In this document: in pieces, positions 4,730 to 32,351 of the stretch
How the letters are laid out: each line of letters begins with the position of its first letter
How positions within the stretch are numbered: the first letter of the stretch is position 1
Assembly: GCA_937127265.1 (NCBI GenBank)
Contig: CAKZLX010000462.1
Span: 1-33,036, forward strand
Reading direction: 5' to 3'
DNA: 33,036 nucleotides
DNA from: an uncultured Pseudomonadota bacterium
Lineage (GTDB): Bacteria > Myxococcota_A > UBA796
Notes under the pieces: model-generated
The model's input: only the letters and a program-made list of their open reading frames with translations
What the model was told of the DNA's origin: nothing
The model's database searches: none
Made by a program: the position numbers and the translations under genes

Positions 4730-5998
4730 TTAGGATTGATTTTCAATCACAGGATCCTCTCCTGATCTTACCATAACTTTTAGGCTTATGTTTTGACACC
4801 ATGGTCTGACCATCGCCGATAGATTTACACTGAGCATTGGTTGGGTATGACTAGGAAGTGCCTCTCCTATGACAGAAGGTCTCCCTTTACCCTCAGCACC
4901 CACCAAGATCCCTCGTTCATAAAACGGATTCAATACCATTTCCACTGTTTTTTCCAAGGCTACTGCTTCCACTTTCTTCACCGGTCGAAACACAAACATA
5001 TCTGCTGCTTGCCGTAATGACTGGTGGATCGCCTTCACAGTTCGAATCACAGGGATACTCCATTCATATCTTGGACGACGCAAGGTGTATTCAGAGGTCA
5101 CTTGGGCCTTCCTACCACGACTATCAATCGATAACACCGCACAATTATCTGAAAGCATATCTGCATAAGGTAACGGCCCTGAAGAGGTTAACAACCGTGC
5201 GCGATTGGCAATAATCTTACGACCACCCACCAAGGGGATCTCGTGCCCCACCAATGACTGGGTGACTACATCGACCCGTTTATTGATGTACCCAGCCAAG
5301 AAAGCCGAACCACAGCGCCATCCGTGCTTAAACATCCCATCCATATCACCCGTCCAAGAACACAAAGCGATATCGTACCCCTGAATGTTGTTAAGGGTGT
5401 GAATGATATCTTGTGGTGCATCTGGTACCATGTCCATGAAGCCTAACTGAAAATTCTCGGCAAATAAAGGGCCATAGGTTTGAATACAGTCCATTAAATT
5501 ACGCGACTGATCAGGATGCAACATTCGTTCGCGATCCAAAGACCATGCTCGTGCCCATGGACCACCAGCGTCTGGAAACACAATCATCGCACCTGGAATC
5601 TCACTGAAGAACCCCATCAACATCTCGACAACCGATTGATTGGTTAATTCAGCGGAATACACACCGGGCACCCGAACCAATATACAATCGACTTCATTAC
5701 ACCCCATTTCCAAGATACTGGTCACAGAATCCTTGAGACGGGAGGGATGATTTGCATCAATACCAGGTAGTAAAGAAGCTTGGGCGATTGATGTTAGACG
5801 AACTTGCTCCACAAAAGGATCTCGACCGTTCCAATTTGAACGACGAATTAAAGCCCCCGGTGACAGTTCAGAAATAATCGGTGAGGCAAAAGGAACAACA
5901 CCCACGACACACAAACGTGGAAGTGATTGCTTTGAGGACTGCGGACGAGCCAAACTAACTTCGATACTGACTCGTTTTTGTAAAGGATTGTTATTCAT
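4730..5998 (-). CDS. Divergent sheath-like paralog (Afp3/Afp4-like?), otherwise hypothetical
   Basis: 422 aa. The C-terminal segment EWSIPVIRTVKAIHQSLRQAADMFVFRPVKKVEAVALEKTVEMVLNPFYERGILVG aligns by eye with the bona fide sheath C-terminus in this window, WNYVNVRRLFLFVERSVRDSVNWAVFQPNNNQTRENLKNSIAAFLFRCYNEGMLDG. The N-terminus lacks the PGVYxEE motif. Confidence 0.45.
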   Translation of the reverse strand: MNNNPLQKRVSIEVSLARPQSSKQSLPRLCVVGVVPFASPIISELSPGALIRRSNWNGRDPFVEQVRLTSIAQASLLPGIDANHPSRLKDSVTSILEMGCNEVDCILVRVPGVYSAELTNQSVVEMLMGFFSEIPGAMIVFPDAGGPWARAWSLDRERMLHPDQSRNLMDCIQTYGPLFAENFQLGFMDMVPDAPQDIIHTLNNIQGYDIALCSWTGDMDGMFKHGWRCGSAFLAGYINKRVDVVTQSLVGHEIPLVGGRKIIANRARLLTSSGPLPYADMLSDNCAVLSIDSRGRKAQVTSEYTLRRPRYEWSIPVIRTVKAIHQSLRQAADMFVFRPVKKVEAVALEKTVEMVLNPFYERGILVGAEGKGRPSVIGEALPSHTQPMLSVNLSAMVRPWCQNISLKVMVRSGEDPVIENQS

Positions 5999-6014: not shown

Positions 6015-6176
6015 TTATTTCATGGCTTCAAGGATCTTTTTATTGATCTTGCTCACCTGGCCTACCCACTCTACACGCTCTTTGTGCGGTAGTTCCAAGA
6101 TTTCATGAAGACTCCAATGCATATGGTATGCCAAAAATGCGGTTTCTTCACGAACTCTTGGAAGCGGATAGGCCAC
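6015..6176 (-). CDS. Small ORF in the -1 frame of the chaperone gene. It is either a stand-alone 53-aa protein starting at GTG 6176, or the E'-like extension of a frameshifted chaperone.
   Basis: Below the size cutoff of the ORF track. Translation: VAYPLPRVREETAFLAYHMHWSLHEILELPHKERVEWVGQVSKINKKILEAMK, stop at 6015-6017. From memory it resembles the small proteins (annotated DUF6760, if I recall correctly) that follow 'phage tail assembly protein' genes in CIS loci. This is not verified. Confidence 0.5.
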   Translation of the reverse strand: MAYPLPRVREETAFLAYHMHWSLHEILELPHKERVEWVGQVSKINKKILEAMK

Positions 6177-6178
6177 CG

Positions 6179-6718
6179 TTACCCCCCCGGACCGGGTTCC
6201 TCCTCAGGGAGATTTTCTTCGCCATAGGTCAAACGATAGACGGCGTATTCCAAAGCACGAACATCCAAGGCGTGCATTTTACCCACATCGTTCACAGTTA
6301 CATTTTTGTGTGGACCAATGCGCGTGACAGTACGAGACAATAACAACGTACGGTATACCAGATCGTTTGGATGCCGATTGTATTGAGAAGACTGACCAAT
6401 AAATAACTCATCGGCGCCAGTAACCGCACGCACTTCGGCCTCACGTGCCAATTCACCATTGGGCAATTCAAAGCCGACTGGCAATTGAATTAATTCGCGA
6501 TGACTGGTTCGAGCTGGTCCACCACCTTGCCAAGTCGGAGAATAGGCTTCAGGTGTCGGACTACCTGCCGTCGGAGAGGGCGGAGCACTCATCGAAGGGG
6601 CTGGATTAGTAGACGGAGGGGCAGATGGTGCACCAACGGATGGCGGTGCTACCGGAGGAGGCGCCTGAGGAACACTACCACCAGTTGGAGGTGGAATATC
6701 AGGTGTTTTTGAACTCAT
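6179..6718 (-). CDS. Phage tail assembly chaperone-like protein (P2 gpE-like) with a proline-rich N-terminal extension
   Basis: 179 aa. The C-terminal half LIQLPVGFELPNGELAREAEVRAVTGADELFIGQ...LLLSRTVTRIGP...NDVGKMHALDVRALEYAVYRLTY resembles gpE-type tail assembly proteins. The first ~65 aa are rich in Pro, Ser and Ala. Confidence 0.55.
   Translation of the reverse strand: MSSKTPDIPPPTGGSVPQAPPPVAPPSVGAPSAPPSTNPAPSMSAPPSPTAGSPTPEAYSPTWQGGGPARTSHRELIQLPVGFELPNGELAREAEVRAVTGADELFIGQSSQYNRHPNDLVYRTLLLSRTVTRIGPHKNVTVNDVGKMHALDVRALEYAVYRLTYGEENLPEEEPGPGG
6182..6188 (-). promoter_or_regulatory. Candidate -1 programmed frameshift site: G GGG GGG heptamer immediately before the TAA stop of the chaperone gene
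   Basis: The plus strand shows seven consecutive C at 6182-6188. On the coding strand this reads CCG GGG GGG TAA. The -1 frame is open from this run for 55 further codons, to the stop at 6015. Confidence 0.4.
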
Positions 6719-6913: not shown

Positions 6914-7363
6914 TTAAGCGCCTTGAGTTACGTGAGAGCAAGTCAAAGTAATGGTTTCAACAGCGGCTTCTGAAGAAGATGCATCCATTGGAGGCAATTC
7001 CCATTTTGAAGGATATGCATCGTGGATAGACATTGTGCGGATTACAGTTTCCATATCTGGAAGAAGCAAAGAAACAGTGACAAGTTTACGCTCGATTTTT
7101 CCACGCTCGATTTGCTCACGCCATGCATAGAAAGAGTCTACTTGTTGGTAAACACGTTTTAATTCGATATCTTCGAACATTGCGCGACCTGGTTGCTTCA
7201 TTACGAAACGGTCATCACCATGCATGAATTCCATTGTTTCAGAAGTTGATACAACACCTGATACAGAAACGAATTTTGAGTTTTCGACTTCGATTCCGTC
7301 GATTGTTACTTTGAAGTTAAATGCGCCGATATAATTATCAAGGCCAAACTGAGGAGCACCCAT
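6914..7363 (-). CDS. CIS inner tube protein (T4 gp19 family, Afp1/Pvc1-type)
   Basis: 149 aa. The motifs GAFNFKVTIDGIEVENSKFVSVSGVVSTSETMEFMHGDD...DAYPSKWELPPMDASSSEAAVETITLTCSHV match the classic tube signature. GGAG lies 8 nt upstream of the ATG. The gene sits directly downstream of the sheath gene. Confidence 0.9.
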   Translation of the reverse strand: MGAPQFGLDNYIGAFNFKVTIDGIEVENSKFVSVSGVVSTSETMEFMHGDDRFVMKQPGRAMFEDIELKRVYQQVDSFYAWREQIERGKIERKLVTVSLLLPDMETVIRTMSIHDAYPSKWELPPMDASSSEAAVETITLTCSHVTQGA

Positions 7364-7508: not shown

Positions 7509-9404
7509 TTAACCTACTTGCATTGGAGTTTGTGAGAAACGGATTCGGACAAACTCTGCTGGGAAGACTGGACGGATTTGAACGTCAACAGTGAGCAATC
7601 CAGAGCGAATGTCTGCTTCAGGGTTGTTCTCTTTGTCACATTGTACAGTGAAAGAGTCTTGCCATGAATCACCGTCCAACATTCCTTCGTTGTAGCAACG
7701 GAACAAGAATGCGGCGATTGAGTTCTTGAGGTTCTCACGAGTTTGGTTGTTGTTTGGTTGGAATACAGCCCAGTTGACAGAGTCACGAACTGAACGCTCA
7801 ACAAACAAGAACAAACGACGAACGTTGACGTAGTTCCACAATGCATCAGCGGCAACAGTACGAGCACCCCAAATACGGATACCAGCACCAGGACGATGAC
7901 GAATAATGTTGATCCCTTTGACGTTCAATGAAGCTTGCTCGCGATCGGATACAGAAGTAACCAATTCGGCGACACCCAATACAGGCTCATTGGCAGGTGC
8001 TTTATGTACACCACCACCAGCTTTAGTGTCAGTACCAGCGATCACACCAGCAACGAAACCAGCAGGAGGAGCAACGATGTACTTATCACTTGGACCAGTA
8101 GACAATGGATTGTCAACGATCAACCATGGTGAGTAAACAGCACCGTGACCTTTGTCATCACGTGGAGTACAACGATCCAATACGATATCAGCAGCAAAGC
8201 CTAAGAAACGCAATTCCTTTGAAGATGGCTCAGCCAACACTTGCATTTCACGTACTTCGTATGAACCACCAGCTTTTAACCAGCGAGTTTCAGTCACTTC
8301 AACACCGCGAGGAGGCTTAGTCATCAAGTAACGAGGGGCTTCAAGAACAGCAAAGAGGTCACCACGTCCAGCAGGACCAGCATATTCAAGAATCGCTTGT
8401 TGCCAACCGAACTCCAAACCAGGAGCACACAACATAGCGACAGCAGAGGCACCATCATATGCTTTTTCAAGGAAGGCACGTTTTGCAGGTCCACCAGTTC
8501 CTTCAGCTTGCAAGGCAACAGCAGGGAAAGCAGTAGCACCACCGTTTGAGAAGAAACCGACCAAAGACAGTTCCAAACGACGCATACCGGGATGAGTACG
8601 AACCCAGTTCAACCAAGCGTTTTGAGCAGATGCATCCAAAGAATCCCACATGATCTCAGCTTTTGATGGTGTCATCTTCTTGTCGCCTTCCAACAAGATT
8701 TGAACGAACAAGTTTGCAGACCATTCTGTACGCCATGCGTGGAAACCGTCCATTGAAGAAAATGAAGGAGCAGTTCCGTGCATACGTTCATGGATTGCAT
8801 CAACATCGACAGTGATTGGCTTTTGGGTTTTATCAACACAGCCAAGTTCACCAGTGTGAGCAACGCCTTGTTCTTCAGCGTGTGCTGCAATCAATTCCAT
8901 TACTTTGTTTGAAGCTTCAGAGAAACTCAAGTCCCATTCTGCTTTTGAAGAAGCGTCAACTGTGACACTCATCAATGCGCGAGATACAGGAAAACGAAGC
9001 ATTTCACCTTTGGCAGATGACATGGTAACTTTACTATCACCAGTTGGAGATTTCACATCCCACTGACCAGGAAGTACTTCAGATACCAACTGTTGGAATT
9101 CATTTCCAGCAACGGCAGGCTTGTCATCCTTTTTACCTTTCGACTTTTTATCATCTTTGCTTGCGGCAGGAGCATCGCTAGCAGGCGCCAAACGACGGAA
9201 GGCACGTGCACGATTCCAATACATGTGAACGTCTTCAGTAGAGCCAGGCAAGTACATGTTAGATGCACCACCGCCACCAGGGACGAATTGGGTTGGGATT
9301 TCAATAACGGCTACAAAGCCTGTTTCAGTTGTTGAAGAAGCCTGTACTGGACGTGGTCCATTTGAGATCTCTTCAATGTAAACACCAGGAGTACGGTAGT
9401 TCAT
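7509..9404 (-). CDS. Contractile tail sheath protein (Afp2/Pvc2/TssC-like fold family), 631 aa
   Basis: The N-terminus MNYRTPGVYIEEISNG is the canonical sheath start. It also has the FFSNGG motif and the C-terminal segment GINIIRHRPGAGIRIWGARTV...WNYVNVRRLFLFVERSV. I place the start at ATG 9404 (GGAG 8 nt upstream) rather than at the TTG at 9416 used by the ORF track. Confidence 0.92.
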   Translation of the reverse strand: MNYRTPGVYIEEISNGPRPVQASSTTETGFVAVIEIPTQFVPGGGGASNMYLPGSTEDVHMYWNRARAFRRLAPASDAPAASKDDKKSKGKKDDKPAVAGNEFQQLVSEVLPGQWDVKSPTGDSKVTMSSAKGEMLRFPVSRALMSVTVDASSKAEWDLSFSEASNKVMELIAAHAEEQGVAHTGELGCVDKTQKPITVDVDAIHERMHGTAPSFSSMDGFHAWRTEWSANLFVQILLEGDKKMTPSKAEIMWDSLDASAQNAWLNWVRTHPGMRRLELSLVGFFSNGGATAFPAVALQAEGTGGPAKRAFLEKAYDGASAVAMLCAPGLEFGWQQAILEYAGPAGRGDLFAVLEAPRYLMTKPPRGVEVTETRWLKAGGSYEVREMQVLAEPSSKELRFLGFAADIVLDRCTPRDDKGHGAVYSPWLIVDNPLSTGPSDKYIVAPPAGFVAGVIAGTDTKAGGGVHKAPANEPVLGVAELVTSVSDREQASLNVKGINIIRHRPGAGIRIWGARTVAADALWNYVNVRRLFLFVERSVRDSVNWAVFQPNNNQTRENLKNSIAAFLFRCYNEGMLDGDSWQDSFTVQCDKENNPEADIRSGLLTVDVQIRPVFPAEFVRIRFSQTPMQVG

Positions 9405-9877
9405 AGTTTTCTCCAAAATTTAGAGCGTGAGTTGTTGATTGAGAATTGTGTCGATGGATTCGAACGTTCAAAGGGTGGGTGAATGACCATTGTGCCTCCG
9501 ACCACTTTCTGGGACAATACATGTCGCATTGGACCCATCGAGCGTTGTGTCGTTAGAGCAATCAAAGGATATCGAACCCCTCTTTGACCTTGTAATACAT
9601 CTTGTTGCTTGCGCAATTGTTTTTTTGAATGAGCATCTGGAGAAAGCCATTTATCAGAACCCAACTTTCGCACCAATGGTTTGAACATGGGTGTTAACAA
9701 TGGAATTTCATCAGATTGCATAAAGACTATCACAGAATTGAAGTTGTCAATACATTGAAGACGAAAAAAATTTTCATCAACGTTCTTTTTTAACACTTTT
9801 TTGGTATCAAAGCACATAAAAACAATCCGAAGACCTCTTTGACATTTTGTCATTACACTTGTAAGACCCATTGTCAA
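9401..9877 (-). CDS. Doubtful 158-codon ORF filling the CIS leader; no recognisable domain
   Basis: The start is a TTG and the first ATG is at 9871; neither has a Shine-Dalgarno sequence. The stop TGA overlaps the sheath ATG (ATGA at 9401-9404). An internal ATG at 9490, preceded by GGAGG (9495-9499), would give a 29-aa peptide ending at the same ATGA. The 158-codon ORF may be a real small gene or a chance ORF in a leader; the 29-aa internal frame could alternatively act as a uORF. Confidence 0.2.
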   Translation of the reverse strand: MTMGLTSVMTKCQRGLRIVFMCFDTKKVLKKNVDENFFRLQCIDNFNSVIVFMQSDEIPLLTPMFKPLVRKLGSDKWLSPDAHSKKQLRKQQDVLQGQRGVRYPLIALTTQRSMGPMRHVLSQKVVGGTMVIHPPFERSNPSTQFSINNSRSKFWRKL

Positions 9878-10018: not shown

Positions 10019-10954
10019 ATGACTACACCTTCTACAAAATGGTTTGCTATCGGCTCTTTTGGCATATCAACCGTGCTTGCCTACCTTGGAGGCTTTGCTG
10101 GCTCTTCGTTTTTGGAAAGACAAATTGCCACTAACGATGTTGCTCCTGAAATGGAAATGTCGACCCAAGACAAACCTTCACAAAACAATACAGCACCAAA
10201 AAAAAGCGCTCGCAACCGTAAACGCACTCCACAAGAACGTGAATATGTTCAAAACATTGTCAACCGAAGTATCTTCGATTCAACCCAAGCAGGAAAAAAA
10301 AGCACGGTCATTTCTGATCCTGTAGAGGGCGACTCAGTAGAATCGAGTTTGCAGTTAACCTTATTGGCTACTATCATTGCTCAACCTGCCAAATACAGCG
10401 TGGCATTGATCCAAGACGAAACAAGTGGAGCAAACACCTATGGCGTCGGATATGACTTAATCGGTCAGGCAACCGTCACCAAAATTGAAAAGAATCGTGT
10501 TTACTTCCAACGCAACAACTCGGAGCAATTGGAGTATATTGAGATCGGCGGAGAAACACCGAGTAAAGAGCCCGGTACAACAAAGAAAACAGGGACCACT
10601 GCTGAGGATGGCGCCATTCAAAAGGTTGGAAACAACAAATATGTTGTGGATCAATCTGTACTGGATGAAATCCTAGCCAATCCTGAGAAATTATACACCC
10701 AAGTTCGGGTCACGCCACATAAAGATGCCGATGGAAATATCGATGGATACCGAATGACTGGAATCCGTAGAAAGTCCCTCTTCTATAAACTGGGGATCAA
10801 AAATGGCGACATTGTACACAGTGTGAATGGCCAACAATTAAATAGTTTATCCTCCGCTATGGATGCCTACAACTCCCTCGGTAACTCTAGAGATTTTAAT
10901 TTCGACGTTACTCGACGCAAAAATAAACAAACTTTTGAATACGAAGTTCGATAA
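10019..10954 (+). CDS. gspC: Type II secretion system protein GspC (N-terminal TM segment, C-terminal PDZ domain)
   Basis: 311 aa. It has a TM segment FAIGSFGISTVLAYLGGFAG and a C-terminal PDZ-like segment GYRMTGIRRKSLFYKLGIKNGDIVHSVNGQQLNS. It is the first gene of the gsp operon, directly upstream of the secretin. Confidence 0.8.
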   Translation: MTTPSTKWFAIGSFGISTVLAYLGGFAGSSFLERQIATNDVAPEMEMSTQDKPSQNNTAPKKSARNRKRTPQEREYVQNIVNRSIFDSTQAGKKSTVISDPVEGDSVESSLQLTLLATIIAQPAKYSVALIQDETSGANTYGVGYDLIGQATVTKIEKNRVYFQRNNSEQLEYIEIGGETPSKEPGTTKKTGTTAEDGAIQKVGNNKYVVDQSVLDEILANPEKLYTQVRVTPHKDADGNIDGYRMTGIRRKSLFYKLGIKNGDIVHSVNGQQLNSLSSAMDAYNSLGNSRDFNFDVTRRKNKQTFEYEVR

Positions 10955-10987
10955 CAACTCGCCCTTACAGTCTATAAGGAACCTTAC

Positions 10988-13573
10988 ATGTTCAATTTTT
11001 CCTATCTATTGCTTACACAACTGGTATTTGCCGAACAACCGGCATTGTCTCCTCAAAAAACCATCGGACCCAAAGCATTACCACCCAGAATAAACTTGGA
11101 TGGCACTTCACCTGTTCTTGAAGAACAACGCCGTCAAAAAGAGGAAGAAGCTAAAGCGGCTGAAGAAAAGGCTAAAGCCGAAGCCGCAAAAAATGCTGGT
11201 GGAGAACCTGGAAATAATGAGATTCGAATCGGATCCAATATGGGTGCCGTGCCGGCCAATTACGCTTCCATCAATGGTGCTAGCAAAGTCGAATTCAATT
11301 TCCCACAAGGCATTGAGTTGATGCAATTAATTAAAATGATGGCTCAAGCCACTGGAAGAAACTTCATTCTCGGGAATGATATCAAAGGCTCCGTGACCGT
11401 AATTTCTCACAAGTCGTTGACCGTTCCCGAAGCTTATGAGGCTTTCTTGAGCATCTTAGAAGTCAGTGGATACACCACAGTTGCGGTTGGACAAAACCTC
11501 AAAATCGTTTCCACTTCCGGTGCTAGTAATTCACCATTGCGCTATGGATACGATGGCGCAATCCCCAGCACTGACAATTTCATCACCCAAATTATTCAGT
11601 TGGAAAATGTTTCCGTTTCTGACATTTCTCCGATTGTGAAAGATCTCTCGGGTAAGTCTGCCAAAATCATAACCTACGCCCCCACCAATACACTGATTAT
11701 CACCGATGCTGGAGTGAACATCAAACGGGTTTATGACATTATTTCCAAAATGGACGTGGCTGCACCCAAAAGCCAGATGCGGATCATTCCTTTACAACAC
11801 GCCACTGCCTCTGATGTGCAGCAAATTATCAATGAATTGTACGGAGATGATGGTTCTCAAAGCACCTCCAAAACAAAATCCAGCACAAGTTCTCGTAGAA
11901 ACCGTCGTTCCAAATCTAAAAAGAGCACACCCGCTTCAAGTAGTGCCACCAATGTTGGTAGTGAAGAAAAGTACATTGAAAAAATTATTTCCGATGAACG
12001 GACCAACTCTTTGATTGTGATGGCCAATGAAAATGCCTTGGATACCATCACCAAACTGATCAAAGACTTGGATGTGGATGTAGATCCCGCTTCTCGTGCA
12101 CAGATTCACGTTGTTTATTTAGAGCACGCCAAAGCCGAAGACATTGCCCAAGTTCTCAGCAATCTTTCTCAAAACACCAGTGGAAACTCGCGAACAAACT
12201 CACGAAATAGCAGAACATCTAGAACCTCTCGCAATACCACAAACAACAATGCAAAAGCGGATGCCGATGCGGATTCATCTGTTGTCGCCGCCTTTGATTC
12301 GGGAATCCGGATTACCCATGATGAAAACACCAATTCCTTGGTCATTATCGCCACGCCCGATCAAATTCAATATGTCAAACAAGTCATCGAAAAGTTAGAC
12401 ATCCGTCGTAAACAAGTGTTCGTAGAGGCCGTTGTATTGGAACTTGCCAGTGATGAGACCTTCGACTTTGGGATGGGTGCACACTTGGGTAAACCCAATG
12501 ACGATGGATCACTGTCGATTTTCAGTTCACAGTTAAACGGATCCTCTTTTGGGCTATCCGCGGATCTACTGACAGGGATGGCGATGGGTGTATTTGGCGA
12601 ACCGGTTTCGGTCAGTGTCAGCGACGGTCTTGGAGGAACCTCCTCCTTGGCAGTACCGGCATTTGGAATTGCCTTAAATGCATTACAAAGCAATTCTTCG
12701 GTTAACATTTTATCCACACCAAACATTTTAACCCTAGACAACGAAGAAGCAGCCATCATTGTCGGTCGAAACATTCCCTTTCCAGTCTCAACTGGTCGTG
12801 ACAACAACAACAATCCCATCGTTTCTTACCAACGTGAAGACGTAGCGATCACCCTCAAAGTCACCCCACAAATTAACGAGTCGAACTACGTCACCCTTAC
12901 CGTATTTCAAGAAGTACAAGAAGTGGAAGAAGACTCACAAGGTCTAGACGTATCTACTGCTGGATTCATCACATCTAAGCGCTCTGCGGATACTACAGTG
13001 CTGGTAAAAGACAATCAAACCGTGGTCATCGGCGGACTCATTGGAACAACCGATACCAGTGTTGCCACCAAAGTACCCATCCTAGGAGATATTCCCATCA
13101 TTGGAAAAATGTTCCGTGGAAATCGAACTTCCTCTCGAAAGTCAAACATGCTGATCTTTCTCACACCACACGTAATTGATGACGAAAGCGATCTCGAAGA
13201 AGTCTATCGGGTTAAAGTGGCACAGCGACAAGAGTTCATTCGTCGCTTTTATGGAAAAAGTCGCCAACAGCAAGAAGTCGAATTGGAAAAATTACTGCAA
13301 TACAGCATGAACCACATCGACAAGCCTTCAGTCTACCGTGGCAATGAACGCAAAGAAAACAACTGGGAAGTTATCGGTTCTCAAGCACCTGTGGCTGCAC
13401 CAATTGAATCAACTCCTTCTGTCGACACAGATACCCTTGATACTGATAGTGACATGGAACCAACGGAAAGCATCGACGAACGCATTGAAGTCATCGATAA
13501 CGAGGACAGTGAGGTTGACGAAACCAATGTGAAAAACGATACTACCAGTCCTGATACTGAGGAGAATCCATAA
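10988..13573 (+). CDS. gspD: Type II secretion system secretin GspD
   Basis: 861 aa. The N0/N1-N3 domains (IELMQLIKMMAQATGRNFILGNDIKGSVTV...) and the secretin core (NILSTPNILTLDNEEAAIIVGRNIPF...VPILGDIPIIGKMFR...MLIFLTPHVI) are unmistakable. Several Ser/Arg/Asn/Thr low-complexity loops and an acidic C-terminal tail are present. Confidence 0.95.
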   Translation: MFNFSYLLLTQLVFAEQPALSPQKTIGPKALPPRINLDGTSPVLEEQRRQKEEEAKAAEEKAKAEAAKNAGGEPGNNEIRIGSNMGAVPANYASINGASKVEFNFPQGIELMQLIKMMAQATGRNFILGNDIKGSVTVISHKSLTVPEAYEAFLSILEVSGYTTVAVGQNLKIVSTSGASNSPLRYGYDGAIPSTDNFITQIIQLENVSVSDISPIVKDLSGKSAKIITYAPTNTLIITDAGVNIKRVYDIISKMDVAAPKSQMRIIPLQHATASDVQQIINELYGDDGSQSTSKTKSSTSSRRNRRSKSKKSTPASSSATNVGSEEKYIEKIISDERTNSLIVMANENALDTITKLIKDLDVDVDPASRAQIHVVYLEHAKAEDIAQVLSNLSQNTSGNSRTNSRNSRTSRTSRNTTNNNAKADADADSSVVAAFDSGIRITHDENTNSLVIIATPDQIQYVKQVIEKLDIRRKQVFVEAVVLELASDETFDFGMGAHLGKPNDDGSLSIFSSQLNGSSFGLSADLLTGMAMGVFGEPVSVSVSDGLGGTSSLAVPAFGIALNALQSNSSVNILSTPNILTLDNEEAAIIVGRNIPFPVSTGRDNNNNPIVSYQREDVAITLKVTPQINESNYVTLTVFQEVQEVEEDSQGLDVSTAGFITSKRSADTTVLVKDNQTVVIGGLIGTTDTSVATKVPILGDIPIIGKMFRGNRTSSRKSNMLIFLTPHVIDDESDLEEVYRVKVAQRQEFIRRFYGKSRQQQEVELEKLLQYSMNHIDKPSVYRGNERKENNWEVIGSQAPVAAPIESTPSVDTDTLDTDSDMEPTESIDERIEVIDNEDSEVDETNVKNDTTSPDTEENP

Positions 13574-15168
13574 TGGGTATCCGTCGTGTAGCATCCGTTT
13601 CTCTTGAAGAAGATGTCTCTTTGGTTGAGCAAGCCAAGGCCGTTGGTCTGCCTTTTTTGGAAGCCTTAAACCTTGATGAGTTAGATGCTCAATTTATTCG
13701 TCAACTGTCTTTGGGATTGGTGCGTGAACAGATGGCACTACCACTGTGGATAAAAGATGGTCATTTGGAAGTTGCCATCGCCTCCACTGATCGTTTCCAA
13801 CTGCTAGATGAATATCGTATATTCTTTGGACATCCTATCCAACCAGTATTGGTACCAGCTAAGGCATTACCCGAATGGATTAACCAAGCATTTGATCGCG
13901 CCACACAATCTGCTTCTGACGTGATGGAAGAAATGGAACGCGATGGTGAAGTCGAACGTGAAGGTGAAATCTTAGTCGGTGAAGACTTGTTGGACAACCC
14001 TCAAGCCGCACCTATTGTACGTTTCGTAAACTCTTTATTGAGTCAAGCGATCAAACAAAAAGCATCCGACATTCACATCGAACCGTTTGAAAAGGGACTA
14101 TCCGTTCGTATGCGTGTAGATGGGGTTCTTCAACAAGACGTACAACCTCCGCGTGCTTGGAAGGGTCAATTGGCCTCTCGGATCAAAGTGATGTCTTTTT
14201 TGGATATCGCCAAGAAAAATGTGCCCCAAGATGGTCGTATTCGAACCCGAATGGCAGGACGCGAAATCGACATTCGTGTTTCCACAATGCCCGTTCGACA
14301 CGGTGAACGAGTGGTGATGCGGATTTTGGAAAAGCAAACCAACTTCTCTTTGGATGGGGTTGGGATGGCTGTGGACACCTTGGAAACTTTTCGTGAGATC
14401 ATCAAGATACCTTATGGGATTATTTTGGTCTGTGGGCCCACCGGTTCTGGAAAGACCACCACTTTGTATTCAGCACTGTCTGAAATCAACTCTCCAGATA
14501 AAAACATCCTGACCATTGAAGATCCAATTGAATATGAACTGGCAGGAATCGGTCAAACCCAAGTCAACCATAAAATTGGGCTCGACTTTGCCCGCGTTGT
14601 ACGTGCTCACCTTCGTCAAGATCCCGATGTGATTTTGATTGGGGAAACCCGTGACAAAGAAACCGCCGAAAATGCTATCCAAGCATCTTTGACCGGTCAC
14701 TTGGTGTTCTCCACCATCCACACCAATGATTCGCCAACGGCTTTTACACGCTTGATTGATATGGGCATCGAACCGTTTTTGGTCGCCACCTCACTCACGG
14801 CAGTATTGGCTCAACGATTGGTTCGTCGCTTGTGTGAACACTGTAAAACGCCATATCAGCCAAGCGATTCTGAGTTGGCAAAAATGGACATTGATCAACA
14901 CATGCACTACTACTCTGGTATCCTCTACAAAGCCAAGGGATGTCCGGAATGTTCCAACAAGGGATACTCTGGTCGTATGGGGATTTATGAACTGATGATT
15001 GTCGATGAAGATATTCGTCGCATGGTTGCCCAAGGGAAAGATGCAGCCGAAATTATGCAATTATGTGTGTCGAAAGGCATGCGCACCCTCCGTGGTGATG
15101 GAATGATCAAAGTATTACAGGGGTTCACATCCATGGATGAAATCTTCCGAGTCGCTTCAGGAGGGTAA
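13573..15168 (+). CDS. gspE: Type II secretion ATPase GspE
   Basis: 531 aa. Walker A motif GPTGSGKTT, and the segment RQDPDVILIGETRD. Tetracysteine CEHC...CPEC. The TAATG start overlaps the gspD stop. Confidence 0.95.
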   Translation: MGIRRVASVSLEEDVSLVEQAKAVGLPFLEALNLDELDAQFIRQLSLGLVREQMALPLWIKDGHLEVAIASTDRFQLLDEYRIFFGHPIQPVLVPAKALPEWINQAFDRATQSASDVMEEMERDGEVEREGEILVGEDLLDNPQAAPIVRFVNSLLSQAIKQKASDIHIEPFEKGLSVRMRVDGVLQQDVQPPRAWKGQLASRIKVMSFLDIAKKNVPQDGRIRTRMAGREIDIRVSTMPVRHGERVVMRILEKQTNFSLDGVGMAVDTLETFREIIKIPYGIILVCGPTGSGKTTTLYSALSEINSPDKNILTIEDPIEYELAGIGQTQVNHKIGLDFARVVRAHLRQDPDVILIGETRDKETAENAIQASLTGHLVFSTIHTNDSPTAFTRLIDMGIEPFLVATSLTAVLAQRLVRRLCEHCKTPYQPSDSELAKMDIDQHMHYYSGILYKAKGCPECSNKGYSGRMGIYELMIVDEDIRRMVAQGKDAAEIMQLCVSKGMRTLRGDGMIKVLQGFTSMDEIFRVASGG

Positions 15169-15170
15169 GA

Positions 15171-16406
15171 ATGCCAGCATTTGAATACAAAGCTCTCGCT
15201 CAAAATGGTAAAAAGACCAGTGGTATCATCAACGCTGACAGCAAGAAAGCCGCTCGTTCTCAACTCAAAAAGCAAGGTCTCTTTCCTACTGAGGTCAAAG
15301 AACAGCAATCGGGAAAGAAAACCAGTGGGCAAGGTCTCAACATTGAGATTGATTTTGCAAAATACTTTGAACGAGTTTCGGCACAAGAGTTGGCGGAAGT
15401 GACCAGTCAAATGGAAACATTAATTCGCACTTCGGTCGATATCTCTGAAACATTGAAAATTCTAGCCGAACAAACCGAAAACAACATGCTGCGATTGGCA
15501 TTGGTCGAAATTCAAGACAAAGTACAAAAAGGAGAATCTCTCTCTTCAGCGATGGCTGAACACCCAAAAATCTTCAACAATCTCTATGTCTCGTTGGTTG
15601 AAGTAGGGCAAGAAACCGGTAAACTAGACGACATTTTGGCACGGTTGCGAGAATACACCACCAAGATGGTTGATCTACAACAAAAGGTGATCAAAGCCGT
15701 TAGTTACCCTCTGCTCACCATGTTCATTTCTGGAGCCGTTGTGCTGGGGATCTTCATTGGTGTCATCCCTCGTATTCGGAAACTGTTTGATACTTTTGGC
15801 GCCACCCTTCCTTTGCCCACCCAAATCGTCTTGTTTATCAGTGACTTCTTGTTGAACTATTGGTACTTAATTGTCATAGCTGTGATCGCTTTAATCATCG
15901 GAGTTCCCAAATGGCTGGCCACAGAGAACGGACGACGAACCTTTGACACTTGGCTGTTGAAACTTCCATTTTTCGGAAATCTGTTTCGAATGATCGCCAC
16001 CTCCCGTTTTTCAAGAACATTGGCCACATTGTTGCGCGGTGGTCTCCCCTTGGACAAAGCATTGCCCATCGCCGAAAAGGTACTGGGTAATGTTGTACTG
16101 GCCGAAGTGGTCTCTGACGCTACCGATAACATCATCAAAGGCTATGCTTTTGCAAAACCTCTCGAAGAGTCTGGACAGTTTCCTCCCTTGTTGGTTCGGA
16201 TGATCGCAGTGGGAGAACGCACGGGTGAAATGGAACACATGTTGGTTGAGGCTTCCGATGCCTACGACCAACGGGTCGACACCAAATTGAACTCCCTTGC
16301 TTCGGTCATCGAACCATTCATGATGGTGGGATTGGGTGGGATCGTTTTATTGATCGGCACCTCAGTTTTATTGCCCCTGTTAAACATGTCGGCACTGGCT
16401 CGCTAA
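15171..16406 (+). CDS. gspF: Type II secretion inner-membrane platform protein GspF
   Basis: 411 aa with the duplicated GspF/PilC domain architecture (...LSSAMAEHPKIFNNLYVSLVEVGQETGKLD... and ...FPPLLVRMIAVGERTGEMEHML...). Confidence 0.95.
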   Translation: MPAFEYKALAQNGKKTSGIINADSKKAARSQLKKQGLFPTEVKEQQSGKKTSGQGLNIEIDFAKYFERVSAQELAEVTSQMETLIRTSVDISETLKILAEQTENNMLRLALVEIQDKVQKGESLSSAMAEHPKIFNNLYVSLVEVGQETGKLDDILARLREYTTKMVDLQQKVIKAVSYPLLTMFISGAVVLGIFIGVIPRIRKLFDTFGATLPLPTQIVLFISDFLLNYWYLIVIAVIALIIGVPKWLATENGRRTFDTWLLKLPFFGNLFRMIATSRFSRTLATLLRGGLPLDKALPIAEKVLGNVVLAEVVSDATDNIIKGYAFAKPLEESGQFPPLLVRMIAVGERTGEMEHMLVEASDAYDQRVDTKLNSLASVIEPFMMVGLGGIVLLIGTSVLLPLLNMSALAR

Positions 16407-16447
16407 ATACACTTTTATAATTGCTCATTACTATGTAGGAGATTCTC

Positions 16448-16882
16448 ATGAAGAAAAATCTATTGTCACAATCTATTCGGGCTACCCGTCGTGGTATGTC
16501 TTTGATCGAAATCGTTGTTGTACTCGCCATTCTAGGTATTCTAGCCACTGTAATTGGTGGTTCGATGCTCGGTGCATTGGATTCTGCCAACCAAGATACC
16601 ACCCGTATTGCCATTGGTCGAGTCAGTTCTGCTTTGGATATGTATGCTGCCAAACACCGTGGTAAATACCCAAGTACCAGTCAAGGGTTGGTTGCCGCCA
16701 AATCATTGATGCCAAATGGTGAAGTTCTGTTGGATGCTTGGGGTGGTGATTTTGTCTACCTCAGTCCAGCACAAGGTTGCGATGCCAAGTATGAAGTCAA
16801 ATCTTTGGGTAAAGACGGTAAAGAAGGTGGCGTCGAGTTTGATGCCGACATCAGTTCTTGCAACTTAAACGGCGACGAATAG
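16448..16882 (+). CDS. gspG: Major pseudopilin GspG
   Basis: 144 aa. Prepilin leader ...RRG/MSLIEIVVVLAILGILA, and the signature segment DAWGGDFVYLSP...YEVKSLGKDGKEGG. AGGAGA Shine-Dalgarno sequence upstream. Confidence 0.93.
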   Translation: MKKNLLSQSIRATRRGMSLIEIVVVLAILGILATVIGGSMLGALDSANQDTTRIAIGRVSSALDMYAAKHRGKYPSTSQGLVAAKSLMPNGEVLLDAWGGDFVYLSPAQGCDAKYEVKSLGKDGKEGGVEFDADISSCNLNGDE

Positions 16883-16898
16883 TCCAAGGTGAAACCGT

Positions 16899-17603
16899 AT
16901 GCGTCGTGGAATGACCCTCATCGAGTTGGTGATCGTGATTGCGATTGTTGGACTCATTGCAGCCATTGCCGCTCCAAGTCTCAATTCCATTTTGGGACTG
17001 GAGCAACAATCGGCGGTCAAAGAGATGGGGCAAACCATGATGTGGCTCCAAGAAGAAGCCGCAATGCGTAATGTTGCCTTTAGACTAGAAATCAACTTGG
17101 ATCGCAACCAGTGGAAAGTCGAACAAGGTGATCCATCATCTCTGATCTTTGCCACACCGGAAGAAGCCGAAGAATTTAGGGACGAACAAAAAGCCCAAAT
17201 GCGTCGATTTACCAAACGACAAATTGAATCCGGAGAGGTAGACGTTGCCGAAGATCCTTCGAAGTTTGGTGAGATTGACGATCCCCGTTTTGAAACCAAA
17301 CAAACCTTGCCCGAAGGGCTACAATTCGCCTTTGTCTATACCCCACAATATGGTGAAGATGGTGTAGAGCCCAATGTCGAGTTGCCTGACGATCCCGAAG
17401 ATGAAAAGATTGCTCACATTCACATTTTTCCAGATGGCACCGCTGAACACACTGTGATTCGAATCATTGAAACCGAAGAGCCCGACAATGGGTACTCCTT
17501 AGAAATGGATCCCATGGGTGGAATGGTTCGGATGACCGATGAAATCCTCGACCCACGAAATTCGATGGACTGGATTCCAGATGAGGGGCCTGACTTCCGA
17601 TGA
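16899..17603 (+). CDS. gspH: Minor pseudopilin, GspH-type (enlarged)
   Basis: 234 aa. Prepilin-type N-terminus MRRG/MTLIELVIVIAIVGLIAAIA. It is assigned by its position after gspG. Confidence 0.7.
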   Translation: MRRGMTLIELVIVIAIVGLIAAIAAPSLNSILGLEQQSAVKEMGQTMMWLQEEAAMRNVAFRLEINLDRNQWKVEQGDPSSLIFATPEEAEEFRDEQKAQMRRFTKRQIESGEVDVAEDPSKFGEIDDPRFETKQTLPEGLQFAFVYTPQYGEDGVEPNVELPDDPEDEKIAHIHIFPDGTAEHTVIRIIETEEPDNGYSLEMDPMGGMVRMTDEILDPRNSMDWIPDEGPDFR

Positions 17604-18259
17604 TGCTCTCCTTCTCTTCTATTCAATTGCAACGAACACGGTCTGTACGTGGTTTCAGTTTGATCGAAATCACCATCGCCCTTTCGATCTTGGTATTGGC
17701 GTTGTCGATTTTGGTGGAAAACCAAGGATTTGCGGCATTCATGACCCGTGATGCTGAAAAGATACGCATTGCAACGATGCTTGCCGAAGAAAAAATGGTG
17801 GAAGCCCAACTCTATTTGGAACTGGAAGGTTGGAAAAGTACTGACATCAATGAAGATGGTGACTTTGATGACTTGGGTAGTGAAGAATTTCGAGGTTCTG
17901 GAAACAATTTGGATCTCGATGAAGACTTTGAGGACTACCAGTGGGCCTACACTATCAGAACGATCGAACTCAACATGCCTGCCGACATGGGTGGGATGAT
18001 GAATGACATGATGGGTGAAGGCTATTATGGTGACCAGTCCCAAAACGAAGCGGTACAAGACAACCAAATGGACCTTGGCGACCTCGGGGTGTCCTCGGAC
18101 ATGATCACCGACTATCTCTCCGACTATATTCGTGAAGTTCGGGTCATTGTGTGGTGGGAAGAAGATTTTGAAGAAACCGGTGACTACGTTGAACTACTCA
18201 CCCACGTGGTCAACCCATCAGGAGTGGTGACAGATCCCGAGATGGAGGAGACCCAATGA
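17600..18259 (+). CDS. gspI: Minor pseudopilin, GspI-type (enlarged, acidic insertion)
   Basis: 219 aa. N-terminus VRG/FSLIEITIALSILVLAL. Its start overlaps the gspH stop by 4 nt. Assigned by operon order. Confidence 0.65.
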   Translation: MMLSFSSIQLQRTRSVRGFSLIEITIALSILVLALSILVENQGFAAFMTRDAEKIRIATMLAEEKMVEAQLYLELEGWKSTDINEDGDFDDLGSEEFRGSGNNLDLDEDFEDYQWAYTIRTIELNMPADMGGMMNDMMGEGYYGDQSQNEAVQDNQMDLGDLGVSSDMITDYLSDYIREVRVIVWWEEDFEETGDYVELLTHVVNPSGVVTDPEMEETQ

Positions 18260-18987
18260 CACTGATGCCTCCATGCCAAAGCCGTCGTCGTGGTCTCACA
18301 CTGATCGAAGTGGTCATCTCCTTAGGAATTTTGGTATTCATTGGAGCAATGACCTGGCAAACAATCGCTGGTTCATTGATGCTACGTGATATTTTAGCCT
18401 ATGAAGATTCCGTCTCTCGAAGTGCCCGTGTGGCGATGGATCAAATCAAAAAGGAATTGCGCGTTGCCTTTCTGACTTCCAATACCACTGCCGTTAACAC
18501 CTACCAAACGGTATTCATTGGCAAAGATGGTGGTGAGGAAGACCAATTGTGGTTTAATACCATGGCGCATCGACGAAAATACGTTGGTGCACGAGAAGGC
18601 GATCAAGCAGAAGTCACTCTCTGGGTTGAGAAAGGCACCAAAGAAACCGAACAAGTGCTCTTTCACCGAGAGTCTGGACGGGTGGATCACGAGCCAGAAA
18701 AAGGCGGTGTGGTCTTACCGATGATCACCCATATCAAAACCTTCAACTTGCGCTACTTGGATGGTACCATCAATGAATGGCAAGATGAATGGGATTCCAC
18801 TGGACCCGACCAAAGCAATCGATTACCTCGAGCGGTTGAAATCACCTTGGTAATCGAAAAAGAACATCCCGAAACCGGTGAAGAACAAACCTTTACGTTT
18901 TTGAATACCGTCGTCTTGGAAACAGCGGCCCCCATGAAACGATCGTTATTAGCGGGTGACGGTGGTGGGAGAAAGTTGCCGATATGA
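18256..18987 (+). CDS. gspJ: Minor pseudopilin GspJ
   Basis: 243 aa. N-terminus RRRG/LTLIEVVISLGILVFIG. 4-nt start/stop overlap with its neighbours on both sides. Assigned by operon order. Confidence 0.75.
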   Translation: MTLMPPCQSRRRGLTLIEVVISLGILVFIGAMTWQTIAGSLMLRDILAYEDSVSRSARVAMDQIKKELRVAFLTSNTTAVNTYQTVFIGKDGGEEDQLWFNTMAHRRKYVGAREGDQAEVTLWVEKGTKETEQVLFHRESGRVDHEPEKGGVVLPMITHIKTFNLRYLDGTINEWQDEWDSTGPDQSNRLPRAVEITLVIEKEHPETGEEQTFTFLNTVVLETAAPMKRSLLAGDGGGRKLPI

Positions 18988-32150: not shown

Positions 32151-32351
32151 GTGATTTTAGTACGAGTCCGTGACCACGAACCATTTGAAAAAGCCATGCG
32201 CCGCTTCCGTCGCAAAGTTGAACGCGAAGGAATCCGCAAAGACATCAAGAAAAACAGTTTCTACTTGAAACCCGGCGAAAAAAAACGTTTAAAGCAACGT
32301 TTGGCTGAAAAACGTCGTCGTAAGGCAATGCGTCGTTCACGTCGTCGTTAA
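32151..32351 (+). CDS. rpsU: 30S ribosomal protein S21
   Basis: 66 aa with a GTG start. The sequence ILVRVRDHEPFEKAMRRFRRKVEREGIRKDIKKNSFYLKPGEKKR... is a clear S21 match. GGAG lies upstream. Confidence 0.93.
   Translation: MILVRVRDHEPFEKAMRRFRRKVEREGIRKDIKKNSFYLKPGEKKRLKQRLAEKRRRKAMRRSRRR

What the first reader, a model, noticed from the sequence alone, without database searches (positions are those of the whole stretch)
6015..6718. G7 slippery run exactly at the chaperone stop codon with an open -1 frame: candidate tail-assembly-chaperone-type programmed frameshift inside a CIS
The 179-aa gpE-like gene ends ...CCG GGG GGG TAA, seen as seven C on the plus strand at 6182-6188. This is a perfect X XXY YYZ heptamer (G GGG GGG). 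The -1 frame is open from this run for 55 codons (VTVAYPLPRVREETAFLAYHMHWSLHEILELPHKERVEWVGQVSKINKKILEAMK) and ends 17 nt before the next gene. A slip would produce a ~234-aa fusion protein. Tailed phages conserve exactly this arrangement (lambda G/GT, P2 E/E+E'). The conserved-looking part of the extension (AFLAYHMHW...) begins upstream of the only in-frame ATG (6122). So the extension needs either the frameshift or a GTG start at 6176, 3 nt after the stop, whose only SD-like element is the G run itself. A homopolymeric G7 could alternatively act as a phase-variable or transcriptional-slippage tract.
Basis: partly seen in the sequence, partly recalled or inferred. Interest (0 to 1): 0.7.

Follow-up and report, generated by a model that had tools for sequence, protein, structure and literature searches.

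The report
Conserved frameshift in injection-system chaperone gene
A run of seven G's at the end of a phage-type tail-assembly-chaperone gene in a bacterial contractile injection system is very probably a programmed -1 ribosomal frameshift site that makes a short and a long chaperone from one gene, an arrangement conserved in about a hundred related loci but not described for these systems in the papers searched.

Summary
The 179-aa gene (6179-6718, minus strand) ends CCG GGG GGG TAA. The -1 frame then runs 55 codons and encodes Pfam DUF6760.

The upstream protein is a distant relative of myophage tail assembly chaperones (P2 gpE / Mu gp41 / T4-like hub-assembly protein).

In all 103 related loci analysed, DUF6760 lies in the -1 frame of the chaperone gene.
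- 95 of 98 distinct junctions carry an in-phase G_GGG run at a near-fixed distance from the conserved Tyr-Pro.
- 39 of 96 junctions have no possible start codon for DUF6760.
- Most loci have a covarying 12-bp hairpin about 8 nt downstream and a Shine-Dalgarno-like element upstream.
- Two lineages instead hard-wire the outcome as a chaperone-only gene followed by an in-frame chaperone-DUF6760 fusion gene.

The window's own lineage lacks the hairpin. There the G run abuts the stop codon. A GTG three nucleotides after the stop leaves coupled re-initiation as a live rival. One Oscillospiraceae lineage expresses DUF6760 from its own ribosome-binding site.

Verdict: a new member of the known tail-chaperone frameshift class, located in an injection system. 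It rests on comparative evidence only, and no protein data exist.

The parts
6179..6718 (-). Tail-assembly-chaperone-like gene (179 aa), the 0 frame. Residues 1 to about 68 form a Pro-rich low-complexity extension. Residues from about 70 to about 166 are the conserved chaperone core, followed by a short acidic tail ending PGPGG.
   Evidence: ORF listed. phrog_508 'tail assembly chaperone' is hit by 19 of 20 family members. Pfam Gp41_Mu is hit by 9 of 20 and Phage_TAC_7 by 6 of 20. The top Foldseek PDB hit is the HK97 tail assembly chaperone, though not significant. BFVD hits are T4-like baseplate hub assembly protein (E 3.8e-5) and many tail assembly chaperones.
6199..6205 (-). GAGGAGG, a Shine-Dalgarno-like element 10 nt upstream of the G run. 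It is a candidate 5' stimulator of the dnaX type.
   Evidence: Sequence. Across 96 junctions, anti-SD complementarity peaks for 8-mers starting 14-21 nt upstream of the run (mean -3.5 to -4.8 kcal/mol against about -1 background). This is confounded by conserved Glu codons.
6182..6188 (-). The slippery run G GGG GGG, seen as C7 on the plus strand. It is the proposed -1 shift site.
   Evidence: In-phase G_GGG occurs in 95 of 98 distinct junctions against a background of 0.35% per codon in the same genes.
6179..6181 (-). The 0-frame TAA stop directly after the slip codon, followed by C. This is a 'shifty stop' context.
   Evidence: In the window's lineage the stop abuts the run in 21 of 23 sequences.
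6015..6182 (-). The -1 frame extension of 55 codons plus stop, encoding the DUF6760 domain. A slip gives a 234-aa fusion protein.
   Evidence: Pfam PF20546, E 8.5e-12, 45.4 bits against a cut-off of 27. AlphaFold model has three helices, pLDDT 94.8.
6174..6176 (-). A GTG at the third -1-frame codon. It is the only candidate independent start for DUF6760 in this window.
   Evidence: The start contexts of eight other operon genes show ATG starts with purine-rich SD elements in seven; no SD-like element precedes the gp25 ATG, and the start of the 158-aa ORF is uncertain.
6914..7363 (-). The tube gene (T4 gp19 family) immediately upstream. It is listed as context.
   Evidence: Pfam PF06841, E 3e-27.
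4730..5998 (-). The 422-aa gene immediately downstream. It sits where related loci carry a second sheath or a second tube gene. It is not a tape measure protein.
   Evidence: No Pfam hit. Downstream genes in other loci are Phage_sheath_1 or gp19. Weak pairwise similarity to one such sheath, E 0.012.

Best explanation
The 179-aa gene encodes a tail/hub assembly chaperone of a contractile injection system. Most ribosomes terminate at TAA and make the 179-aa protein. A minority slip back one nucleotide while peptidyl-tRNA-Gly sits on the G GGG GGG run. The slowly decoded stop in the A site (UAA C context) probably helps, and so may the GAGGAGG element 10 nt upstream. These ribosomes continue in the -1 frame and make a 234-aa chaperone-DUF6760 fusion. 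This gives a fixed ratio of short and long chaperone, as with lambda G/GT and P2 E/E+E'. By analogy, the chaperone part would hold an assembly intermediate and the DUF6760 part would recruit another tail component. Shown here: the anatomy, the homology and the conservation. Inferred: the slip itself, its efficiency and the binding partners.
For: (1) DUF6760 lies in the -1 frame of the chaperone gene in 103 of 103 loci, found by independent three-frame HMM hits.
(2) 95 of 98 distinct junctions have a 0-frame GGG codon preceded by G. In 77 of them it sits 4 codons before the conserved Tyr-Pro. The background rate is 0.35% per codon.
(3) 39 of 96 junctions have no ATG, GTG or TTG between the last -1-frame stop and the conserved Tyr-Pro. 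These include L032, L037 and L038 in the window's own lineage. In several loci the -1 frame opens only 13-16 nt before the end of the 0-frame stop, which pins the shift to the G run.
(4) 74 relatives carry a 12-bp hairpin about 8 nt after the run. Paired cells are 88.6% against 34-59% in slid controls. Covariation beats 500 of 500 shuffles. The Leu third codon position covaries with the Gln/Glu first position (CG:33, GC:19).
(5) Two lineages replace the arrangement with a chaperone-only gene plus an in-frame chaperone-DUF6760 fusion gene, found on four contigs. One of these lies in a cluster with Pvc16_N, an AAA ATPase and eCIS_core.
(6) In the window the run is built from the rarest Gly and Pro codons.
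(7) Chaperone homology is supported.
(8) Gene callers disagree on DUF6760 starts within single 90% clusters, for example 64 against 40 aa.
Against: There are no protein, ribosome-profiling or read-level data. The window's lineage has no conserved 3' hairpin: 52.9% of cells pair, the same as controls. In that lineage, 20 of 23 members have a GTG, ATG or TTG at -1 codon 1 or 3, so termination-coupled re-initiation could yield a separate DUF6760. DUF6760 is a free-standing gene with its own RBS in an Oscillospiraceae lineage, and L030 has an ATGA overlap without a G run, so covalent fusion is not universally required. The common G GGG GAA site is not a canonical X XXY YYZ heptamer. The 80 metagenome loci are those most similar to the window out of at least 595 hits, so the 103/103 figure is not a census of the family.
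Confidence: 0.7

Rival explanations
1. There is no frameshift in this lineage. Ribosomes terminate at TAA and re-initiate three nucleotides later at GTG 6174-6176, with the G run acting as a Shine-Dalgarno-like element. The products are separate 179-aa and 53-aa proteins.
For: A GTG lies 5 nt after the run. In the window's lineage, 20 of 23 members have a start codon at -1 codon 1 or 3. That lineage has lost the hairpin. DUF6760 has its own ATG and a GAGGTGATCC RBS in L111. L030 has an ATGA overlap.
Against: L032, L037 and L038, in the same lineage, have no start codon. In L007 and L008 the only start is a GTG overlapping TGA, directly abutting the run, so the run cannot serve as its SD. In the TAA-type members the Thr codon upstream of the GTG is kept as Thr through ACG, ACA and ACC. 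The run keeps the same phase and the same distance to Tyr-Pro as in lineages that have no start codon at all. Seven of the eight other operon genes examined start with ATG and a purine-rich SD.
Confidence: 0.2
2. RNA polymerase slips on the G7 tract and adds one G to a fraction of transcripts, which then encode the same fusion protein.
For: The tract is a homopolymer of 7, and the protein outcome would be identical.
Against: Most relatives have only G4-G5 (54 of 96 junctions). The run is phase-locked to the 0 frame, which transcriptional slippage does not need. The hairpin at a spacing of about 8 nt and the upstream SD-like element are ribosomal signals. From general knowledge, bacterial transcriptional slippage is documented on longer A or T runs.
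Confidence: 0.05
3. The G7 is a phase-variable DNA tract, or a sequencing or assembly artefact.
For: Homopolymers are error-prone. One apparent in-frame fusion (P0027) was found.
Against: P0027 comes from a Pilon-polished long-read contig whose sheath gene is broken into three pieces. The same run and frame relation recur in many independent assemblies at 45-98% protein identity. No good assembly in this lineage shows a fused G8 allele. The four G8 junctions elsewhere still have the -1 arrangement.
Confidence: 0.03

Closest known systems
Phage tail assembly chaperone -1 frameshift (lambda G/GT; P2 E/E+E'; Mu gp41 family; Xu, Hendrix and Duda 2004, as summarised in PMC5009743)
   Same: A small gene just after the tube gene. 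A -1 overlapping extension of about 55 codons. A slippery run near the stop. Short and long products from one gene. Weak sequence homology to Gp41_Mu and Phage_TAC_7, and a fold resembling tail assembly chaperones.
   Different: It sits in an injection-system operon with no capsid genes. It is not followed by a tape measure gene: a sheath paralogue or second tube follows instead. The extension domain is DUF6760, which was not found in 50,697 GenBank phage records. The shift site is a G run (G_GGG_G or G_GGG_stop), not GGGAAAG or TTTTTTG.
E. coli dnaX -1 frameshift cassette (from general knowledge)
   Same: In most relatives there is a three-part signal: an SD-like element about 10 nt upstream, a slippery run, and a stable hairpin 6-8 nt downstream.
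   Different: In the window the hairpin is absent and a stop codon directly follows the run. Also, frameshifting here extends the protein, whereas in dnaX it truncates it.
T4-like 'baseplate hub assembly protein' and Streptomyces phage BRock gp136/gp135
   Same: These are the best structural matches of the chaperone core (BFVD E 3.8e-5, TMq 0.68). BRock has the order sheath, tube, gp136 (chaperone-like domain), then small gp135 carrying the DUF6760 core motif WSLxEIxxLxxRERQxW.
   Different: In BRock the small gene is separate, lies 31 nt downstream in another frame, has no G run, and is followed by a long tape-measure-like gene.
Cis6 / Afp6 / Pvc6 / Alg6 spike plug (PMC8894136, PMC12546770)
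   Same: A small helical protein of about 55 aa encoded among the tube genes of injection systems and needed for assembly.
   Different: A DUF6760 profile finds no PDB chain, and the DUF6760 model has no structural match below E=1. The gene position also differs. Treat them as unrelated unless shown otherwise.

Membership tests
Programmed -1 frameshift tail assembly chaperone (G/GT type) | The upstream ORF is a tail assembly chaperone homologue. | tested here: met
   phrog_508 is hit by 19 of 20 family members (best E 2.4e-7; the window core scores 0.0084). Gp41_Mu is hit by 9 of 20 and Phage_TAC_7 by 6 of 20. Foldseek and BFVD matches are to tail assembly chaperones and T4-like hub assembly proteins. 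The window protein alone is below Pfam thresholds.
Programmed -1 frameshift tail assembly chaperone (G/GT type) | The second ORF overlaps in the -1 frame, and this is conserved among relatives. | tested here: met
   103 of 103 loci.
Programmed -1 frameshift tail assembly chaperone (G/GT type) | A conserved slippery sequence lies in the overlap. | tested here: met
   In-phase G_GGG occurs in 95 of 98 junctions. The window has the perfect heptamer G GGG GGG.
Programmed -1 frameshift tail assembly chaperone (G/GT type) | The second ORF lacks its own initiation signal. | tested here: inconclusive
   Met in 39 of 96 junctions with no start codon at all. In the window a GTG lies 3 nt after the stop.
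Programmed -1 frameshift tail assembly chaperone (G/GT type) | The gene lies between the major tail/tube gene and the tape measure gene. | tested here: not met
   The tube gene is directly upstream. The downstream gene is a sheath-like 422-aa protein, and other loci carry a second sheath or tube there. No tape measure gene is present in the window.
Programmed -1 frameshift tail assembly chaperone (G/GT type) | Two proteins are made in a fixed ratio, both are needed for assembly, and neither is in the particle. | not testable with these tools
   Indirect support only: two lineages encode the short and long forms as separate adjacent genes.
Pfam DUF6760 (PF20546) | The score exceeds the curated gathering threshold. 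| tested here: met
   45.4 bits against a cut-off of 27, E 8.5e-12.
dnaX-type three-part -1 frameshift signal | A stable 3' hairpin lies 5-9 nt after the slip site. | tested here: not met
   Absent in the window's lineage. Present and covarying in 74 other relatives.
dnaX-type three-part -1 frameshift signal | An SD-like element lies about 10 nt 5' of the slip site. | tested here: inconclusive
   The window has GAGGAGG 10 nt upstream, and there is a family-wide peak of anti-SD complementarity. The same bases encode conserved Glu residues.
Cis6 spike plug | Sequence or structural similarity to solved Cis6, Pvc6 or Alg6 chains. | tested here: not met
   No PDB hit by profile or by fold.

The most novel reading that the evidence does not exclude
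Many contractile injection systems in several phyla carry a chaperone not reported in the papers searched. Its long form is made by a conserved -1 ribosomal frameshift on a G run, and DUF6760 is the frameshift-encoded domain. The signal exists in two interchangeable designs: run plus hairpin, or run plus adjacent stop codon as in this window. Evolution has repeatedly swapped the frameshift for gene duplication with fusion, or for a separate gene.
Probability: 0.65. Interest if true: 0.7.

Novelty: new member of a known kind. Interest (0 to 1): 0.6.

Why it matters
The injection-system papers I could search name no tail assembly chaperone and no frameshift. One 2026 preprint states that length control in these systems is poorly understood.

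If the frameshift is real, three things follow.
- A Pfam domain of unknown function gets a role.
- Two assembly factors are added to the parts list of systems that are being engineered for protein delivery.
- Automatic annotation is shown to miscall this gene pair, with inconsistent or truncated DUF6760 starts.

It also gives recoding researchers a large natural series of at least 595 loci in which slip-site length, hairpin and stop-codon position vary together.

Tried and rejected
(1) P0027, a 138-aa in-frame fusion 96% identical to the window, looked like direct evidence. It comes from an error-ridden long-read contig with a fragmented sheath gene, so I discarded it.

(2) DUF6760 as the Cis6/Pvc6 spike plug. 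There was no sequence hit and no fold hit.

(3) The 422-aa downstream gene as a tape measure protein. Its position is taken by a second sheath or tube in relatives, and its sequence is not helical-repetitive.

(4) A conserved 3' hairpin in the window itself. It is absent.

(5) DUF6760 in sequenced phages. tblastn found nothing.

(6) Direct PDB sequence relatives of the 179-aa protein. None were found.

(7) Several literature searches for an injection-system chaperone or frameshift. Nothing relevant turned up.

Full report
**Observation**

On the minus strand the 179-aa ORF (6179-6718) ends GAA CCC GGT CCG GGG GGG TAA.
- The seven G's are at 6182-6188.
- Reading from the last G in the -1 frame gives 55 codons: VTVAYPLPR...ILEAMK, with the stop at 6015-6017.
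- The next gene starts at 5998, 16 nt beyond that stop.
- The -1 frame is closed by a stop only 25 nt before the end of the 0-frame stop. Any -1 entry must therefore occur within that 25-nt stretch, which ends with the run.
- The window is 45% GC. GGG (12.5% of Gly codons) and CCG (13.3% of Pro codons) are the rarest synonymous choices.
- This is the only G or C homopolymer of 7 or more in the 33 kb.

**Context**

The minus strand carries an injection-system operon. In order it contains:
- a 158-aa ORF;
- the sheath gene (7509-9416);
- a gp19-type tube gene (6914-7363);
- the 179-aa gene;
- the small -1 ORF;
- a 422-aa protein with no Pfam hit;
- a second gp19-type tube gene;
- a CIS_tube protein;
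- a GPD-type hub;
- a gp25 homologue.

An ORF of at least 554 aa runs off the left edge. The plus strand from 10019 carries a type II secretion cluster. The closest genomes are uncultured Myxococcota MAGs.

**What the two ORFs are**

The small ORF is Pfam DUF6760 (E 8.5e-12, above the curated threshold). Its AlphaFold model is a confident three-helix unit (pLDDT 94.8).

The 179-aa protein alone hits only phrog_508 'tail assembly chaperone', weakly (E 0.03). Across 20 diverse family members the picture is clearer:
- 19 hit phrog_508 (best E 2.4e-7);
- 9 hit Pfam Gp41_Mu;
- 6 hit Phage_TAC_7, the P2 gpE / Mu gp41 family.

A model of the core (pLDDT 76) gives these matches:
- the top PDB match is the HK97 tail assembly chaperone, although it is not significant (E 0.72);
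- against predicted viral structures it matches 'baseplate hub assembly protein, T4-like' (E 3.8e-5, TMq 0.68);
- it also matches a string of proteins named tail assembly chaperone, tape measure chaperone, or pre-tape-measure frameshift protein G.

**Comparative test of the junction**

Homologues of the 179-aa protein almost all end ...EEPGPGG at the same position. I collected three sets of loci:
- 10 genome loci;
- 14 IMG/VR loci;
- the best 80 of at least 595 metagenome loci.

I located the chaperone and DUF6760 independently by HMM in three-frame translations. In all 103 loci holding both, DUF6760 is in the -1 frame relative to the chaperone. One further locus, L011, was set aside beforehand because of assembly errors (below).

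Results for the 98 distinct junctions:
- 95 have a 0-frame GGG codon preceded by G.
- Run lengths are G4 in 9, G5 in 45, G6 in 15, G7 in 23 and G8 in 4.
- In 77 junctions the slip codon lies exactly 4 codons before the invariant Tyr-Pro of DUF6760.
- The 0-frame stop follows the slip codon after 0 codons (26), 1 codon (35) or 2 codons (26).
- The same motif occurs at only 0.35% of codons elsewhere in these genes.
- 39 of 96 junctions have no ATG, GTG or TTG anywhere between the last -1-frame stop and Tyr-Pro, and 62 have none within 10 codons.
- In several loci (L013, L016, L017, L064, L090, L098, L100, L105) the -1 frame opens only 13-16 nt before the end of the 0-frame stop.

The conserved residues GG[IV]x[GS]YP therefore cannot be reached except by a shift at the run. 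Gene callers give inconsistent starts within single 90%-identity clusters, for example 64 against 40 aa, or 56, 52 and 41 aa.

**Stimulatory elements**

Sixty nucleotides downstream of the run fold much better than shuffled sequence (mean z -2.7). In 74 relatives this reflects one hairpin, GCUACC.CCUSG / CSAGG.GGUAGC, that starts about 8 nt after the run.
- Paired cells are 88.6%, against 34-59% when the partner is slid.
- Covariation exceeds all 500 shuffles.
- The synonymous third base of a Leu codon covaries with the first base of a Gln/Glu codon (CG:33, GC:19). Protein constraint does not explain that.

Upstream, complementarity to the anti-SD peaks for 8-mers starting 14-21 nt before the run. 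The window has GAGGAGG 10 nt upstream (6199-6205), but these bases also encode conserved Glu residues.

Together these elements give the slippery site, spacer and hairpin layout typical of -1 frameshift signals (the dnaX comparison is from general knowledge).

**The window's own lineage differs**

This lineage has 23 sequences. Run lengths are G7 in 12, G6 in 4, G4 in 6, and none in 1.
- It has no conserved hairpin. RNAalifold finds only trivial pairs, and the equivalent helix pairs in 52.9% of cells, no better than controls.
- Instead, the run directly abuts the stop in 21 of 23 sequences.
- A stop in the A site is a known stimulator of peptidyl-tRNA slippage (the 'shifty stop' concept reviewed in PMC5009743).
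- 20 of the 23 also have a GTG, ATG or TTG at -1 codon 1 or 3, so coupled re-initiation is possible.

Four points argue against re-initiation as the whole story:
- L032, L037 and L038 have no start codon.
- In L007 and L008 the only start overlaps the stop and touches the run.
- The Thr codon upstream of the window's GTG is kept as Thr through ACG, ACA and ACC in the TAA-type members.
- Seven of the eight other operon genes examined start with ATG and a purine-rich SD.

**Natural experiments**

Two lineages have true in-frame chaperone-DUF6760 fusions. P0114 lies on a 42-kb contig next to Pvc16_N, an AAA ATPase and eCIS_core genes. P0141 is found on three independent contigs. In both lineages a separate chaperone-only paralogue (106-108 bits to the family HMM) sits immediately upstream. 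The short and long forms are thus encoded as two genes. This is what one expects if the frameshift's purpose is to supply both forms.

Conversely, in an Oscillospiraceae lineage DUF6760 is a free-standing gene after TGA TGA, with ATG and a GAGGTGATCC RBS and no G run. L030 has an ATGA overlap without a run. Covalent linkage is therefore common but not obligatory.

**Rejected leads**

- The apparent fusion P0027 is an assembly artefact.
- DUF6760 is not detectably the Cis6/Pvc6 spike plug described in PMC8894136 and PMC12546770.
- The downstream gene is not a tape measure protein; in relatives it is a second sheath or tube.
- DUF6760 is absent from GenBank phages by tblastn. Streptomyces phage BRock does have a chaperone-like gp136 followed by a small separate gene carrying the DUF6760 core motif.

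**Mechanism, with its status**

Shown here: the two ORFs, their frame relation, the conserved run and its phase, the hairpin in relatives, and the homology to tail assembly chaperones.

Inferred:
- Peptidyl-tRNA-Gly slips -1 on G_GGG, either alone with the stop in the A site or in tandem on G GGG GGG.
- The 179-aa product is the major product and the 234-aa product the minor one.
- By analogy with lambda G/GT (PMC5009743), the chaperone part holds an assembly intermediate while DUF6760 recruits another tail component.

Efficiency and binding partners are unknown.

**Novelty**

Frameshifted tail chaperones are a textbook feature of long-tailed phages, and injection systems derive from phage tails, so the kind is known. 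I found no paper that reports a chaperone or a frameshift in these systems.

I rate it as a new member of a known kind. It has three unusual traits: a G-run site, the DUF6760 extension, and no adjacent tape measure gene.

Confidence is about 0.7 that the window's site is a functional frameshift, and higher that the family as a whole uses one.

Noticed in passing
window 6515-6718 (-): The first ~68 residues of the 179-aa protein are a Pro/Ala/Ser-rich low-complexity extension. Most relatives lack it and are only about 115-125 aa long. Its length varies even among close homologues.
   Followed up: partly
L013-L023 and most of L039-L105, chaperone C-termini: Most relatives have a single CPxCG motif (half a zinc ribbon) just before the slip site. 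The window's lineage has replaced it with EENLPEEEPGPGG. DUF6760 has invariant or near-invariant His residues (HxHW and a later His), so a composite Cys2-His2 site formed only in the fusion protein is conceivable. This was not tested.
   Followed up: no
window 4730-5998 (-): This 422-aa protein has no Pfam, PHROG or NCBIfam hit. It sits where related loci encode a second sheath protein, and shows only weak pairwise similarity to one (E 0.012).
   Followed up: partly
L009:6480-6489: A Myxococcota MAG keeps G7+TGA at the end of the chaperone gene, but the -1 frame downstream no longer encodes DUF6760. This could be decay or an assembly problem.
   Followed up: no
L024:1823-2790 and L025: In a low-GC lineage the chaperone is a tandem duplication (269 aa, two domains). 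The junction reads GAA AAA TAA TAA TGG: an A-run before the stop instead of a G-run, plus an ATG that would truncate the conserved N-terminus of DUF6760.
   Followed up: partly
L106 (Streptomyces phage BRock) 3836-4919: A true myophage has the order sheath, tube, a 289-aa 'baseplate protein' with the chaperone-like domain, a separate 60-aa ORF with the DUF6760 core motif, and then a 1025-aa 'endolysin' that looks like a tape measure protein. This suggests the pair predates the injection systems.
   Followed up: partly
A5 hairpin, e.g. L013:2470-2503: The 3' arm of the conserved hairpin contains GGAGGU, a perfect Shine-Dalgarno core, and the 5' arm contains CCCCCU. The hairpin could also sequester or mimic an SD / anti-SD pairing.
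   Followed up: no
window 10019-18987 (+): A type II secretion gene set (GspC, secretin GspD, GspE, GspF, GspG and further pseudopilins) is transcribed divergently from the injection-system operon.
   Followed up: no
window 10198-10205, 10294-10301, 28134-28141, 32278-32285: There are four A8 homopolymer runs. Two lie inside the GspC-like ORF near its start. They were not examined for slippage or phase variation.
   Followed up: no
window 9401-9416: The listed TTG start of the sheath ORF overlaps the upstream 158-aa ORF. The likely true start is the ATG 12 nt downstream (MNYRTPGVY), which is preceded by GGAG.
   Followed up: partly
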